Positions 14,771 to 16,823 of a stretch of DNA of 37,703 bases are shown here, in pieces. The stretch's first letter is position 1; each line of letters begins with the position of its first letter. Location of the stretch: NCBI GenBank assembly GCA_964518945.1, contig CAZFLB010000019.1, positions 1 to 37,703 of the forward strand, written 5' to 3'. Under the pieces are notes generated by a model. It searched no databases. It was given only the letters and a program-made list of their open reading frames with translations, and had not been told where the DNA came from. The DNA comes from an uncultured Acidobacteriota bacterium (GTDB lineage: Bacteria; Acidobacteriota; Vicinamibacteria; Marinacidobacterales; SMYC01). Both the position numbers and the translations under genes were made by a program.

Positions 14771-15372
14771 CTTTTGAACTCCTTTTGCCACCAAGGACTT
14801 CCGTAATTCATGTACGGTCCTCCGTCTACTGATATAGCTGCTTCAATTTTGAAATTTAAAGGAGACACCATTCGCTTTTTCGTTTTTAGACGTACAGTGT
14901 GGCCATTCGCTTCGAAAGGAGCACTCTCGTAATGAATTGTGTAGAAACCACCAAGATCGCCACCTATAGGACCTGTCCGAAACATTTCAAAGCCACGACT
15001 GTCTTTGTCGTAGCGGGCGAAGACCTTCCGTTGTTTTTCGTATGCGATGGTGGAGGTGACTGTGAAAGGCCCATCTGGGCCCTCTGCCTCGATGATGCTT
15101 GTGTAGTAATGGCCATCTTCAGAAGGCGTAAATGTTTCAGTTCCTCGGATGGTTCCAGAGGCCCCTAGCGGGCTTTCGGGAACACGCCATTCAAAATTCC
15201 ATTTACCAGGAAAATAGATGTCATAATCGAACAGGGGGGCTTCGTCACTCTTTTCAGTTGGCCGACCTAGATCAGAAATTTGTCCTCGAGGTAATTGTGT
15301 TCTTGGTTTTTCCTGCGTCCACGTTGTTGCAGTGAGCACTAATACACAGATAGATACGAGGACATGTCTCAT
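14767..15372 (-). CDS. Secreted protein of unknown function (possibly a DUF1579-like beta-barrel)
   Basis: It has a signal peptide (MRHVLVSICVLVLTATTWTQE). The ATG at 15372 overlaps the stop of the upstream monooxygenase gene by 1 nt (TGATG). A TTG at 15375 is the alternative start. The fold guess is weak. Confidence 0.55.
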   Translation of the reverse strand: MRHVLVSICVLVLTATTWTQEKPRTQLPRGQISDLGRPTEKSDEAPLFDYDIYFPGKWNFEWRVPESPLGASGTIRGTETFTPSEDGHYYTSIIEAEGPDGPFTVTSTIAYEKQRKVFARYDKDSRGFEMFRTGPIGGDLGGFYTIHYESAPFEANGHTVRLKTKKRMVSPLNFKIEAAISVDGGPYMNYGSPWWQKEFKR

Positions 15373-16823
15373 CAAGGGTCGTTGTTTTCTTCGCTGTCGG
15401 CAGCTTGTTTTGTCAGGTCCAGGCTATCTATCGAATACTCTGTGAAGGCTTGGTACATCTCATCCCAACTTTGCTCACCCCAGTAGACTTCGAGCTGTGG
15501 ACCTGGATTCCAACGGTTGTACAAAGAATTGTCATAGACGCCGATGGCGGTGATTTTGCTGCCAGCTGGAATCTTTAAGGGTTCTACGAGTTCGTAATGG
15601 ATCTGCCAGTTGAAATCAAAATCAGGCACGTCGAGAATTGTGTCCTCACGTCCGTCTGGCCAAGTGAGAATCCATCGTAGGCTCTTACCGCGAAGATGCA
15701 TATGAGGTGACATACCGTAAAGAGTAATGTCTTCAGTTACGGGTGTGATCCCAGTGATTTTCCAGTTTTCAGCATAAGGTGGAATGGTTGGGATTTTGGG
15801 GCGCACACGTTTACCGTTAGCATCAATAGAAGAAACGATCTCTTCACCGTTTACAATATAAATGTCGTGACCTTTAGGATCTGTTGGTACTGGGTTGCCG
15901 CCTTGGCGTGTGAGAACTTCGTGAGTTACTGGCTTTGTGTTAAACCAAACACCAAGTCTTGACCGGTCTTTCTCAGGTTTTCCAGTAGCGTTGTAATGCA
16001 TCGTAAATTTGATCCATTTTCCTGCCGTTAGACGCTTGCCAGTGCCGGGGCGGTGGCGTTCAACCCCTCGACCGGGCGCAAAGGAAATCAACTTACTCGT
16101 TCCCGGAAGATTGAATTGATTAAATACTGCTTGTTGAATCCTAGTCTCAGATCCTTCTGAACGTCGTGCGCGGTCAGCAGTGTTGGCTTGTTTACGGGTA
16201 AGAGGCTCACCGTCTTCGTTCACCATCTTTCCGTTTAAGATACGTGCTCCTGGAAGGGGGTCTATAACAAACGTACCAAAATGATGTACGACTGCGTGGT
16301 TGCCGGGTCGGGCTTCTAAAATTTCTGCGAAACGGTCTTCCTCGAAAGGTATTTCGACATAGAAGTCCAGATACTCTTCCTCTCCTTCTGCTGGTATTTC
16401 GTATTCAACGGGAAGCTCAAAGACATAGTCAGGTTCGCGACCGACTGTCCAACCATCAGAAAACTCTGGCATATCCGGGGGTTGGCCGTCTCCTCGTGGA
16501 GCCCCACCGTCGGCCCATGCAGTAACAACGTCAATCTCATCCTGCGTAAGGCGCCATTCGTTTCTCATTGGGAATGTATTTCCAGGGTCAGCGGGCCAAG
16601 GTGGCATTTCGCCGACAGTTATGGCAGATTTAATTGCTTGTGCCCAGGGACGAACTTCTTTGTAGTCGCGCAGAGGCATGGGGGCAATTTCCCCAGGGCG
16701 GTGGCAACTAACGCAATTCTCATAAAGAATTGGGGCAATGTCCTTCGTAAAAGTCGGAATCTCTGCAATTCCGAACACAGGAGCTAGTACCAAAGTTACA
16801 ATAAGAATCGATGCACGAGTCAT
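15372..16823 (-). CDS. Haem-c domain fused to a copper type II monooxygenase core (PHM/DBH-like)
   Basis: It has a signal peptide. The N-terminal Planctomycete-cytochrome-like domain reads [27 protein letters not shown]...[10 protein letters not shown], with CxxCH at C37/C40/H41. The PHM-like motifs are AVVHHFGTF (H180, H181), [10 protein letters not shown] (H276), [11 protein letters not shown] (H374, H376) and [10 protein letters not shown] (M456). Confidence 0.85.
   Translation of the reverse strand: [483 protein letters not shown]

What the first reader, a model, noticed from the sequence alone, without database searches (positions are those of the whole stretch)
15372..16823. Haem-c domain fused to the PHM-like copper monooxygenase: a possible built-in electron donor replacing ascorbate
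**Seen in the sequence**
- Residues ~25-80 form a Planctomycete-cytochrome-like module: [25 protein letters not shown] ... [10 protein letters not shown].
- The core then aligns motif by motif with rat PHM as I recall it.

| This protein | Rat PHM | Assigned role |
|---|---|---|
| AVVHHFGTF | TVHHMLLFG | CuH His-His |
| [10 protein letters not shown] | VLQVHYGD | third CuH His |
| SPHMHLRGK | RVHTHHLGK | CuM His-x-His |
| SWDEMYQAF | SSDEMCNLY | CuM Met |

- Spacings between motifs are 15-30 residues longer than in PHM, which implies loop insertions.

**Established knowledge**
- PHM and DBH need two external electrons per turnover. In animal secretory vesicles these come from ascorbate, which is not an obvious periplasmic reductant in bacteria.

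**Inference**
- The covalently fused c-type haem could relay electrons from the respiratory chain to the CuH site.
Basis: partly seen in the sequence, partly recalled or inferred. Interest (0 to 1): 0.7.

Follow-up and report, generated by a model that had tools for sequence, protein, structure and literature searches.

The report
Bacterial cytochrome-c-fused PHM-like copper monooxygenase
This exported bacterial protein joins a haem-c cytochrome module to a two-copper hydroxylase of the kind that animals use to amidate peptide hormones, and it sits in an operon with a relative of the second amidation enzyme, which suggests an undescribed bacterial version of that chemistry powered by a built-in cytochrome rather than vitamin C.

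Summary
The gene is on the minus strand (15372-16823, 483 aa).

**The protein**
- It has a signal peptide followed by a roughly 90-residue c-type cytochrome module. The CxxCH contains the protein's only two cysteines, and the MPPW methionine is invariant.
- The rest is a two-domain core. Its AlphaFold model matches only dopamine beta-hydroxylase and PHM at the top of a PDB fold search (E 7e-12 to 2e-8).
- In 150 diverse relatives, CxxCH, Met73 and five of the six copper ligands are invariant wherever covered. The third CuH histidine (H276) is kept in 144 of 145.

**The family**
- It is very large, with about 15,400 clusters at 50% identity, mainly from Acidobacteriota.
- Public names are only "cytochrome c" or "peroxiredoxin". 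No paper describing it was found.

**New here**
- The gene heads a translationally coupled operon that includes an NHL propeller. That propeller keeps all six catalytic and zinc residues of PAL, the partner enzyme of PHM.
- This linkage recurs in 11 loci, with the genes in several different orders.

**Not shown**
- Haem loading, the haem-to-CuH distance and the substrate are all untested.
- PHM's glycine-carboxylate anchors are not conserved.

Verdict: a new variant of a known kind. The electron-donor role is plausible but remains an inference.

The parts
15372..16823 (-). Whole gene: 483-aa cytochrome-c-fused PHM/DBH-like copper monooxygenase
   Evidence: ORF. AF2 model has pLDDT 82.2 and pTM 0.82. 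Foldseek against the PDB returns DBH and PHM as the top 31 hits.
16847..16875 (-). Sigma-70-like promoter match (TTGACA, 17 nt spacer, TAAATT) about 24 nt upstream of the start codon. This is a consensus match only.
   Evidence: 10 of 12 positions match, the best site in the region.
16761..16823 (-). Sec-type signal peptide [21 protein letters not shown], residues 1 to about 21
   Evidence: Read directly from the sequence. No predictor was run.
16488..16760 (-). c-type cytochrome module, residues 22-112, with three helices
   Evidence: - Pfam Cytochrome_CBB3 matches 35 of 45 diverse members.
- A domain profile searched against the PDB finds the hydrazine synthase alpha haem domain (E 4.7e-4) and a cytochrome c (E 0.0045). 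Most of the remaining hits are also c-type cytochromes.
- Helices at residues 25-38, 54-69 and 94-105.
16701..16715 (-). CVSCH haem-c attachment motif (C37, C40, H41). These are the only two cysteines in the protein.
   Evidence: Conserved in 135 of 135 relatives that cover the position.
16596..16607 (-). M73-P-P-W76, with M73 the candidate sixth haem ligand
   Evidence: M73 is conserved in 138 of 138 covered relatives. M49 varies between Met and Phe, so it is not the ligand.
15924..16436 (-). N-terminal jelly-roll domain (CuH domain), residues about 130-300
   Evidence: hhalign to PHM and Foldseek.
16281..16286 (-). H180-H181, aligned to PHM CuH ligands H107/H108
   Evidence: Conserved in 145/145 and 144/145 covered relatives.
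15996..15998 (-). H276, aligned to PHM CuH ligand H172
   Evidence: Conserved in 144/145 covered relatives.
15414..15923 (-). C-terminal jelly-roll domain (CuM domain), residues about 301-470
   Evidence: Pfam Cu2_monoox_C covers residues 346-463, below threshold for the query, and matches 29 of 45 members. hhalign.
15696..15704 (-). H374-M-H376, aligned to PHM CuM ligands H242/H244. The family-specific R378 follows at 15690-15692.
   Evidence: Both histidines are conserved in 140/140 and R378 in 136/140 covered relatives.
15456..15458 (-). M456, aligned to PHM CuM ligand M314
   Evidence: Conserved in 134/134 covered relatives.
14767..15372 (-). Downstream gene 2: exported protein of about 200 aa, DUF1579-like. 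Its start overlaps the stop of the target gene (TGATG).
   Evidence: - Pfam DUF1579 E 3e-4, below threshold.
- Junction sequence.
- Found in 27 of 82 related loci, and immediately downstream of the target in the closer orthologues.
13691..14770 (-). Downstream gene 3: PAL-like six-bladed NHL propeller lipoprotein. Its start overlaps the preceding stop (ATGA).
   Evidence: - Single full-length match to rat PAL 3fvz, E 7.9e-33.
- PAL residues R533, H585, Y654, H690, R706 and H786 are all conserved.
13336..13689 (-). Downstream gene 4: small exported protein of about 95 mature residues with two conserved cysteines. The likely TTG start lies 1 nt after the PAL-like stop.
   Evidence: Alignment of 15 orthologues; junction sequence.
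16856..17998 (+). Divergent HupE_UreJ_2 membrane protein, a putative metal permease. The ORF opens at 16811; the likely start is M16 or M18.
   Evidence: Pfam HupE_UreJ_2 E 2e-46. It co-occurs with the cluster in L002, L083-L086, L088 and L089.

Best explanation
The gene encodes a periplasmic enzyme exported by a Sec signal peptide. It is built from a mono-haem c-type cytochrome module fused ahead of a PHM/DBH-type copper monooxygenase with two separate, uncoupled copper sites.

**Proposed mechanism**
- The haem is attached at C37/C40, with H41 and probably M73 as its axial ligands. It takes single electrons from the periplasmic arm of the respiratory chain.
- It passes them to CuH (H180, H181, H276), which lies in the domain immediately following it in sequence.
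- CuH reduces CuM (H374, H376, M456). There O2 is activated and a C-H bond of the substrate is hydroxylated.
- The fused cytochrome therefore replaces ascorbate as the reductant.

**Proposed pathway in this organism**
- The enzyme is the first gene of a translationally coupled operon. Downstream are a DUF1579-like exported protein, a zinc-type PAL-like lyase and a small disulfide protein. A HupE/UreJ-type metal permease is encoded divergently.
- The likely pathway is hydroxylation next to a heteroatom, followed by PAL-type dealkylation. This would be an amidation-like or N-dealkylation reaction.

**Shown**
- Domain composition and fold.
- Ligand equivalence with PHM and ligand invariance across the family.
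- Obligate presence of the cytochrome module.
- Operon structure and its conservation.
- Conservation of the PAL catalytic residues.

**Inferred**
- Haem and copper loading.
- Direction and path of electron flow.
- The chemistry and the substrate.
For: **PHM/DBH-type core**
- The AF2 model has pLDDT 82.2 and pTM 0.82.
- Foldseek against the PDB gives DBH 4zel at E 7e-12, and about 30 PHM entries at E 2e-11 to 2e-8. Unrelated proteins begin at about 1e-5.
- hhalign of A3 against rat PHM gives Prob 94.6%, E 6.7e-8, and aligns all six copper ligands.

**Conservation**
- CxxCH, M73 and five of the six copper ligands are invariant wherever covered in 150 cluster representatives. H276 is kept in 144 of 145.
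- The 15 representatives that lack CxxCH are N-terminally truncated fragments.
- 95 of the 120 closest homologues have exactly two cysteines.

**Cytochrome module**
- Cytochrome_CBB3 matches 35 of 45 members and Haem_bd 15 of 45. It exceeds the gathering threshold in P0122, at 37.1 bits.
- The domain profile hits the hydrazine-synthase alpha haem-c domain and other c-type cytochromes.
- In the full-length model the cytochrome-to-core linker (residues 101-130) has pLDDT 86-97. It contains many invariant residues: W103, G107, G111, P116, P119, W125 and P131. This suggests a fixed domain interface.

**Operon**
- The gene junctions are TGATG, ATGA and a TTG 1 nt after the preceding stop.
- The same five genes occur in the same order in L083, L084 and L085, where the flanking genes differ.
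- They are rearranged in L002, L011, L012, L088 and L089.

**PAL-like neighbour**
- It matches rat PAL at E 7.9e-33.
- R533, H585, Y654, H690, R706 and H786 are conserved in all linked copies.
Against: - No measurement shows haem or copper binding.
- The haem-to-CuH distance could not be computed because model coordinates are not exposed.
- A model of the cytochrome module alone gave no significant Foldseek hit.
- The query's own Pfam hits are below threshold, and a profile search against PDB sequences did not find PHM.
- PHM's substrate-carboxylate anchors R240, N316 and Y318 are replaced by S372, Q458 and F460, so a peptidyl-glycine substrate is not supported on the monooxygenase side.
- The PAL-like gene is linked only in part of the family. 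It is absent within 8 kb in L001 and L003-L007, which are 61-67% identical orthologues. One PAL-like locus lacks the monooxygenase and another stands alone.
- About a third of relatives carry an N-terminal redoxin domain. That domain could be an alternative electron route.
Confidence: 0.6

Rival explanations
1. The cofactors are the same, but the haem is not the reductant entry point. Electrons would reach the coppers from a thiol/redoxin partner or a small-molecule reductant. The cytochrome module would then have another role, such as structure, redox sensing, or peroxide handling after uncoupled turnover.
For: - 44 of 135 relatives have an AhpC/TSA-redoxin domain ahead of the cytochrome.
- Public annotations call these proteins 'peroxiredoxin'.
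- No distance or redox-potential data exist.
Against: - The cytochrome module is present in every complete family member, whereas the redoxin domain is present in only about a third.
- The window protein has no redoxin domain and no cysteines beyond the CxxCH.
- The module sits directly next to the CuH domain and is joined to it by a conserved, confidently modelled linker.
Confidence: 0.15
2. Electron flow runs the other way. The copper domain oxidises a substrate and hands the electrons out through the haem to the respiratory chain, so the enzyme is a dehydrogenase or oxidase rather than an O2-activating monooxygenase.
For: - Periplasmic dehydrogenases with fused cytochrome c are common.
- In other clades the neighbouring gene encodes a cytochrome c fused to a PQQ-like propeller, and one protein fuses the two (P0256).
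Against: - The complete His3 plus His2Met ligand set of O2-activating PHM/DBH enzymes is invariant.
- From my own knowledge, no member of this fold is known to act as a dehydrogenase.
Confidence: 0.08
3. This is a copper-handling protein rather than an enzyme. The His/Met sites would sequester or traffic periplasmic Cu(I), working with the HupE/UreJ-type permease and the small Cys/His-containing protein as a metal-homeostasis cluster.
For: - A HupE_UreJ_2 permease is encoded divergently and co-occurs with the cluster.
- The small protein has conserved Cys and HxGH motifs.
- The HupE, PAL-like and small-protein genes also occur together without the monooxygenase (L086).
Against: - The PAL-like partner keeps a complete catalytic set, not merely metal ligands.
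- The family forms tandem arrays of 2-5 paralogues. It is also fused to hydrolase, esterase and lipase domains. Both are typical of substrate-diversified enzymes.
- The geometry of two separate copper sites is that of a catalyst.
Confidence: 0.07
4. The PHM resemblance is only a shared double jelly-roll fold of the PNGase F / PHM clan, and the CxxCH is a chance or vestigial motif. The protein would be a binding module or glycosidase-type protein.
For: - The query's Pfam hits are below threshold.
- PNGases appear further down the Foldseek list, at E 3e-4.
- The cytochrome module modelled alone has no significant structural hit.
Against: - DBH and PHM outscore PNGases by about seven orders of magnitude.
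- All six copper ligands align and are conserved.
- CxxCH is kept in 135 of 135 covered relatives, and the cysteines are the only ones in the protein.
Confidence: 0.03

Closest known systems
Peptidylglycine alpha-hydroxylating monooxygenase (PHM, rat PAM catalytic core, PDB 1PHM/1OPM/4E4Z) and dopamine beta-hydroxylase (PDB 4ZEL)
   Same: - Both have the two-jelly-roll fold (Foldseek E 7e-12 to 1e-10).
- The CuH ligands His-His...His and the CuM ligands His-x-His...Met sit at aligned positions.
   Different: - The window protein is bacterial and periplasmic.
- A c-type cytochrome is fused at the N-terminus. DBH instead has a DOMON domain, and PHM has nothing there.
- It has none of PHM's disulfides, since its only two cysteines are in the CxxCH.
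- Loop insertions add 10-31 residues between the ligands.
- The substrate-carboxylate anchors R240, N316 and Y318 are not kept, and a family-specific invariant R378 appears.
- Sequence similarity is detectable only by profile methods.
Bifunctional PAM (PHM + PAL) of animals and green algae
   Same: A PHM-type hydroxylase is genetically coupled to a PAL-type zinc lyase. The lyase keeps R533, H585, Y654, H690, R706 and H786.
   Different: - The two enzymes are separate genes in one operon, with a DUF1579-like gene between them.
- The linkage holds only in part of the family.
- In the PAL-like protein M784 is Trp and the Ca-site residue D787 is Gly.
- The reductant is presumed to be the haem rather than ascorbate.
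Three-domain copper nitrite reductases with a tethered cytochrome c domain (for example Ralstonia pickettii NiR); recalled from my own knowledge, not tested here
   Same: A periplasmic copper enzyme carries its own covalently fused c-type cytochrome as electron donor to the electron-accepting copper site.
   Different: - The copper fold is different (cupredoxin), as is the chemistry (nitrite reduction rather than O2 activation).
- The cytochrome is C-terminal in those enzymes and N-terminal here.
Cellobiose dehydrogenase cytochrome domain donating electrons to lytic polysaccharide monooxygenases; recalled from my own knowledge
   Same: A haem domain acts as the physiological one-electron donor to a copper monooxygenase, in place of a small-molecule reductant.
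   Different: - The haem is type b, in a DOMON-like fold.
- Electron transfer is between separate proteins.
- The copper site is mononuclear, and the system is fungal and extracellular.
C-terminal haem-c domain of hydrazine synthase alpha subunit (PDB 5C2V chain A)
   Same: - It is the nearest solved relative of the cytochrome module by profile search (E 4.7e-4). Both the (F)xxD(I/V)xPILxxKCxxCH start and the LtxxExxxIxxW(I/V)DxGA end match.
- It is also the best cytochrome-containing Foldseek hit for the module modelled alone (TMq 0.49, not significant).
   Different: The rest of the enzyme is unrelated. The match is weak and covers only two short segments.

Membership tests
PHM/DBH copper type II monooxygenases (Pfam PF01082 + PF03712) | Two consecutive jelly-roll domains with the PHM/DBH topology | tested here: met
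   The AF2 model (pLDDT 82, pTM 0.82) has DBH or PHM as all 31 top Foldseek PDB hits, covering about 350 aligned columns with TM about 0.6 on the PHM length.
PHM/DBH copper type II monooxygenases (Pfam PF01082 + PF03712) | CuH site: His-His pair plus a third His about 60-95 residues later | tested here: met
   H180/H181 align to H107/H108 and H276 aligns to H172. They are conserved in 145/145, 144/145 and 144/145 covered relatives.
PHM/DBH copper type II monooxygenases (Pfam PF01082 + PF03712) | CuM site: His-x-His plus a distal Met in a DEM context | tested here: met
   H374/H376 align to H242/H244 and M456 aligns to M314. They are conserved in 140/140, 140/140 and 134/134 covered relatives.
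PHM/DBH copper type II monooxygenases (Pfam PF01082 + PF03712) | Score above the Pfam gathering thresholds | tested here: not met
   - Cu2_monoox_C scores 17.8 bits against a cut-off of 23, and the query has no PF01082 hit.
- At E <= 0.01, Cu2_monoox_C matches 29 of 45 members and PF01082 matches 1 of 45.
PHM/DBH copper type II monooxygenases (Pfam PF01082 + PF03712) | PHM-specific peptidyl-glycine carboxylate anchors (R240, Y318, N316) and conserved disulfides | tested here: not met
   The aligned residues are S372, F460 and Q458. The protein has only two cysteines, both in the CxxCH.
PHM/DBH copper type II monooxygenases (Pfam PF01082 + PF03712) | Binds two Cu atoms and hydroxylates a substrate using O2 and two external electrons | not testable with these tools
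   Requires purified protein, with ICP-MS, EPR and activity assays.
Class I-like c-type cytochrome domain | CxxCH haem attachment motif in an exported protein | tested here: met
   C37-V-S-C40-H41 is conserved in 135 of 135 covered relatives. An N-terminal signal-peptide-like sequence is read directly from the sequence.
Class I-like c-type cytochrome domain | Conserved distal axial ligand (Met or His) 30-60 residues after CxxCH | tested here: met
   M73, in the MPPW motif, is conserved in 138 of 138 covered relatives. M49 varies between Met and Phe. That M73 is the ligand is an inference.
Class I-like c-type cytochrome domain | Recognisable cytochrome c fold or sequence family | tested here: inconclusive
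   - Foldseek on the module modelled alone gave no hit with E < 3.
- The profile search against the PDB gave the hydrazine-synthase haem domain (E 4.7e-4) and a cytochrome c (E 0.0045). Most of the weaker hits were also c-type cytochromes.
- Pfam Cytochrome_CBB3 is below threshold in the query. It is above threshold in P0122 and matches 35 of 45 members.
[quoted passage not shown] | Six-bladed NHL propeller with the zinc triad H585/H690/H786, catalytic Y654 and arginines R533/R706 | tested here: met
   There is a single full-length match to 3fvz_A at E 7.9e-33. All six residues are conserved in the window protein and in eight linked orthologues.
[quoted passage not shown] | Structural Ca site (including D787) and M784 lining the active site | tested here: not met
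   D787 is Gly and M784 is Trp in the linked bacterial copies; the L013 copy has Glu and Thr instead.

The most novel reading that the evidence does not exclude
Acidobacteriota and other soil and marine bacteria may run a periplasmic two-enzyme pathway for amidation or oxidative N-dealkylation, powered by the respiratory chain. A PHM-type monooxygenase wired to a cytochrome c would act first and a PAL-type lyase second. This would be mechanistically the same tandem as eukaryotic PAM but independent of ascorbate. It would represent either the prokaryotic ancestor of peptide amidation or an ancient parallel use of the same enzyme pair. The thousands of paralogues would be tuned to different substrates.
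Probability: 0.3. Interest if true: 0.8.

Novelty: new variant of a known kind. Interest (0 to 1): 0.66.

Why it matters
**Where the field stands**
- PHM/DBH-type copper monooxygenases are treated in the literature as eukaryotic, ascorbate-dependent enzymes. [quoted passage not shown]
- A 2025 review of PHM chemistry mentions no bacterial homologue.

**What this finding adds**
- A very large bacterial family exists: 15,447 clusters at 50% identity with E <= 1e-3, of which 1,961 have E <= 1e-30.
- It keeps the full dicopper ligand set and always carries its own c-type cytochrome.

**What it would give if confirmed**
1. A bacterially expressible model of this enzyme class with a defined one-electron entry point that can be followed by spectroscopy. 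That would make the long-debated CuH-to-CuM electron-transfer step directly observable.
2. An answer to how such enzymes work where ascorbate is absent.
3. Through the PAL-like operon partner, a handle on the evolutionary origin of peptide amidation.
4. A function for thousands of genes now annotated only as 'cytochrome c' or 'peroxiredoxin'.

Tried and rejected
**Approaches that gave nothing**
- Sequence searches against the PDB did not find PHM. This was true for the single protein and for a profile of 120 close homologues.
- hhalign with that shallow alignment (Neff 2.1) was insignificant: E 0.22, C-terminal domain only. Only the more diverse 45-sequence alignment gave a significant two-domain alignment.
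- NCBIfam has no model for the target or for three of its four neighbours. The PAL-like protein only hits the ScyF model, far below its cut-off.
- The cytochrome module modelled alone (pLDDT 76) gave no significant Foldseek hit.
- The DUF1579-like neighbour has no relative in the PDB detectable by sequence.
- Nine full-text literature searches found no paper on bacterial PHM-like proteins fused to cytochrome c, or on bacterial PHM-plus-PAL operons.

**A method problem**
- Clustering raw ORFs from the neighbourhoods was contaminated by antisense ORFs in the high-GC loci.
- I therefore used only clusters confirmed by HMM, BLAST or Pfam.

**Readings considered and rejected**
- A chance CxxCH.
- A PNGase-F-type protein.
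- M49 as the axial haem ligand, because it varies between Met and Phe.
- The small operon protein as a Gly-terminated amidation substrate, because its C-terminus is a conserved ...P-x-C-(P/E), not Gly.

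
Full report
**What is at the coordinates**

The interval 15372-16823 holds one ORF of 483 codons on the minus strand; the plus-strand frame is closed. 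A GGGAGG Shine-Dalgarno sequence lies 7 nt before the ATG. The best sigma-70-like match of the region (TTGACA, 17 nt spacer, TAAATT) lies about 24 nt upstream (consensus match only).

The product starts with a typical Sec signal peptide ([21 protein letters not shown]). Its only two cysteines are those of C37-V-S-C40-H41.

**The copper monooxygenase core**

Direct sequence methods see very little:
- Pfam gives only sub-threshold hits: Cu2_monoox_C at 17.8 bits against a cut-off of 23, and Cytochrome_CBB3 at 17.5 bits against 27.
- NCBIfam gives nothing.
- phmmer and a shallow family profile find no PHM in the PDB.

Structure and deeper profiles settle the matter:
- An AlphaFold2 model built on 120 homologues is confident, with mean pLDDT 82.2 and pTM 0.82.
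- Its 31 best Foldseek matches in the PDB are all human dopamine beta-hydroxylase or rat PHM (E 7e-12 to 2e-8, about 350 aligned columns). Unrelated proteins begin at about 1e-5, and PNGases appear at about 3e-4.
- I verified a rat PHM sequence against the PDB; it is 100% identical to 4e4z_A, with index 1 equal to residue 45.
- I aligned it to a 45-member family alignment of 32-50% identity. hhalign gave 94.6% probability and E 6.7e-8 over 237 columns spanning both domains.

| This protein | Rat PHM | Site |
|---|---|---|
| H180/H181 | H107/H108 | CuH |
| H276 | H172 | CuH |
| H374/H376 | H242/H244 | CuM |
| M456 | M314 | CuM |

The gaps between ligands are 31, 28 and 10 residues longer than in PHM.

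**Conservation**

The family is very large. An exhaustive HMMER scan of 1.84 billion cluster representatives gives 15,447 hits at E <= 1e-3, 8,871 at E <= 1e-10 and 1,961 at E <= 1e-30.

Conservation in the best 150 representatives (34-72% identical), counting only sequences that cover each position:

| Residue(s) | Conserved |
|---|---|
| C37, C40, H41 | 135/135 |
| M73 | 138/138 |
| H180 | 145/145 |
| H181 | 144/145 |
| H276 | 144/145 |
| H374, H376 | 140/140 |
| M456 | 134/134 |

- The 15 sequences without CxxCH are N-terminally truncated gene fragments.
- M49 alternates with Phe and is not a ligand candidate.
- M73, in an invariant MPPW motif, is the likely sixth haem ligand.
- R378, two residues after the His-x-His, is family-specific and nearly invariant (136/140).
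- 95 of the 120 closest homologues have exactly two cysteines, so PHM's disulfides are absent.

**The cytochrome module**

Evidence in favour of a c-type cytochrome:
- The CxxCH and the Met are invariant.
- The module has three helices, with the CxxCH at the end of the first.
- Pfam Cytochrome_CBB3 matches 35 of 45 diverse members and Haem_bd matches 15 of 45. Cytochrome_CBB3 is above threshold in at least one relative (P0122, 37.1 bits).
- A domain-only profile searched against the PDB finds the C-terminal haem-c domain of hydrazine synthase alpha (E 4.7e-4) and a mono-haem cytochrome c (4rlr, E 0.0045). A tail made mostly of c-type cytochromes follows.

One test was inconclusive: a model of the module on its own (pLDDT 76) had no significant Foldseek hit.

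In the full-length model the module and the linker to the CuH domain are modelled with higher confidence, with linker pLDDT of 86-97. The linker is rich in invariant Trp, Gly and Pro residues, which suggests a fixed interface.

**Genomic context**

The gene is first in a tightly packed operon:
- Its stop overlaps the start of a gene for a roughly 200-aa exported DUF1579-like protein (TGATG).
- That gene's stop overlaps the start of an NHL-propeller lipoprotein gene (ATGA).
- A small exported protein gene starts 1 nt after the propeller gene's stop.
- A HupE_UreJ_2 membrane protein (E 2e-46) is encoded divergently.

The NHL protein gives a single full-length match to rat PAL (3fvz, E 7.9e-33). 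It conserves the zinc triad H585/H690/H786, the catalytic Y654, and R533 and R706. The same holds in all eight linked orthologues examined. M784 is Trp and the Ca ligand D787 is Gly in seven of the eight; the L013 copy has Thr and Glu.

Distribution of the cluster:
- The five-gene set occurs in the same order in three orthologous loci (75-80% identity) whose outer flanks are unrelated.
- It occurs in rearranged order in L002, L011 and L012.
- In a reciprocal check from the PAL side, L088 and L089 carry all five genes. L086 has only the permease, the PAL-like gene and the small-protein gene. L087 has the PAL-like gene alone.
- In another clade (L001, L003-L007; 61-67% identity) only the DUF1579-like and small-protein genes follow the monooxygenase.

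The most constant partners are therefore the DUF1579-like gene (27 of 82 loci) and the small-protein gene (17 of 82). The PAL-like and HupE genes are a recurrent, but not universal, second module.

**Wider family**
- About a third of the relatives (44 of 135) carry an N-terminal AhpC/TSA-redoxin domain. Some add C-terminal esterase, peptidase S9/S33, GDSL-lipase, EF-hand or PQQ-like propeller domains.
- Several Acidobacteriota loci hold tandem arrays of two to five paralogues.
- In 16 loci a protein combining cytochrome c with a PQQ-like propeller is adjacent.
- These patterns fit a substrate-diversified periplasmic enzyme family better than a single housekeeping or metal-trafficking role.
- The best 80 of 596 genome hits are almost all Acidobacteriota: Vicinamibacterales, Blastocatellia, Bryobacterales and Terriglobia. 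A redoxin-fused member comes from a Gemmataceae planctomycete.

**How it most likely works**

*Shown:*
- The protein is exported and has an obligate cytochrome-c module fused directly ahead of a PHM/DBH-type dicopper core.
- All metal ligands are conserved.
- It is encoded with a PAL-type lyase in a conserved operon.

*Inferred:*
- The haem accepts single electrons from periplasmic respiratory carriers and reduces CuH.
- CuH reduces CuM, where O2 is activated and a substrate C-H bond is hydroxylated.
- The PAL-like enzyme then cleaves the resulting carbinol-type intermediate.

The substrate is unknown. PHM's glycine-carboxylate anchors R240, N316 and Y318 are S372, Q458 and F460 here. In contrast, the PAL-like protein retains both substrate arginines.

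**Comparison with what is known**
- The closest families are PHM/DBH for the core and bifunctional PAM for the enzyme pair.
- Conceptually, from my own knowledge, the nearest analogues are the three-domain copper nitrite reductases with a tethered cytochrome c, and the haem domain of cellobiose dehydrogenase that reduces LPMOs.
- The protein passes the fold and ligand tests for PHM/DBH membership. It fails the Pfam thresholds, the disulfide pattern and the PHM substrate anchors.
- It is therefore best called a distant bacterial branch of the PHM/DBH superfamily with a new electron-input module, not a peptidylglycine monooxygenase.

**Novelty**
- Public annotations call these proteins 'cytochrome c', 'mono/diheme cytochrome c family protein', 'peroxiredoxin' or 'redoxin domain-containing protein'.
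- A few PAL-like neighbours are auto-named 'peptidylamidoglycolate lyase' by JGI, but most are named 'YncE' or '6-bladed beta-propeller'.
- Nine literature searches found no description.
- A 2022 paper treats PHM as the eukaryotic counterpart of bacterial PNGase F. A 2025 PHM review mentions no bacterial homologue.

**Verdict**
The identification is solid, while electron donation by the haem is plausible and consistent with the evidence but untested.
- I rate it a new variant of a known kind, of real interest to copper-enzyme biochemists and for the evolution of peptide amidation.

Noticed in passing
window 5169-10810 (-), 22938-28697 (-), 30242-35594 (+): Three paralogous gene triplets lie within 37 kb. 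Each consists of three genes:
- a protein of about 800 aa from the 'Planctomycete' PSD family (DUF1592/1588/1587/1585/1595; one copy also matches PSCyt1);
- a DUF1552 'HXXSHH' protein of 457-482 aa;
- an ankyrin-repeat protein of 520-630 aa.

The consistent third, ankyrin partner is unusual.
   Followed up: partly
L073, L051, L067, L075, L080 (Blastocatellia and other Acidobacteriota loci): The cytochrome-c/PHM-like family forms same-strand tandem arrays of two to five paralogues, with HMM E-values from 1e-44 to 1e-118. This suggests diversification of substrates.
   Followed up: partly
L009:3371-5236, L019:4624-6522, L048:5999-7897 and 13 further loci; protein P0256: In other clades the neighbouring gene encodes a 620-670 aa protein with an N-terminal cytochrome c and a PQQ-like beta-propeller. 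One database protein fuses redoxin, cytochrome c, PHM-like core and PQQ_2 propeller in a single chain.
   Followed up: partly
window 13336-13689 (-), with orthologues in 14 loci: A small exported protein of about 95 mature residues has conserved features: a G-C near its N-terminus, an HxGHKV-like motif, and a C-terminal ...P-x-C. It matches no Pfam, NCBIfam or PDB entry. It travels with both the monooxygenase module and the HupE/PAL-like module.
   Followed up: partly
window 16811-17998 (+): The HupE_UreJ_2 protein has a non-membrane N-terminal region of about 200 residues with no family match. Its ORF overlaps the start of the target gene, and the real start is probably at 16856 or 16862. That leaves only about 30 bp between the divergent genes.
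   Followed up: no
whole window: The window's GC content is 45-50%, and the identical protein is known only from one 18.7-kb ENA metagenome contig. Its nearest genome-resolved relatives are Vicinamibacterales MAGs at no more than 67% identity. The source therefore looks like a poorly sampled acidobacterial lineage.
   Followed up: no
window 35676-37568 (+): The Peptidase_S15 (X-Pro dipeptidyl-peptidase) catalytic domain and its PepX_C domain fall in two separate ORFs, 35676-36875 and 37047-37568. This could be a frameshift or a split gene.
   Followed up: no
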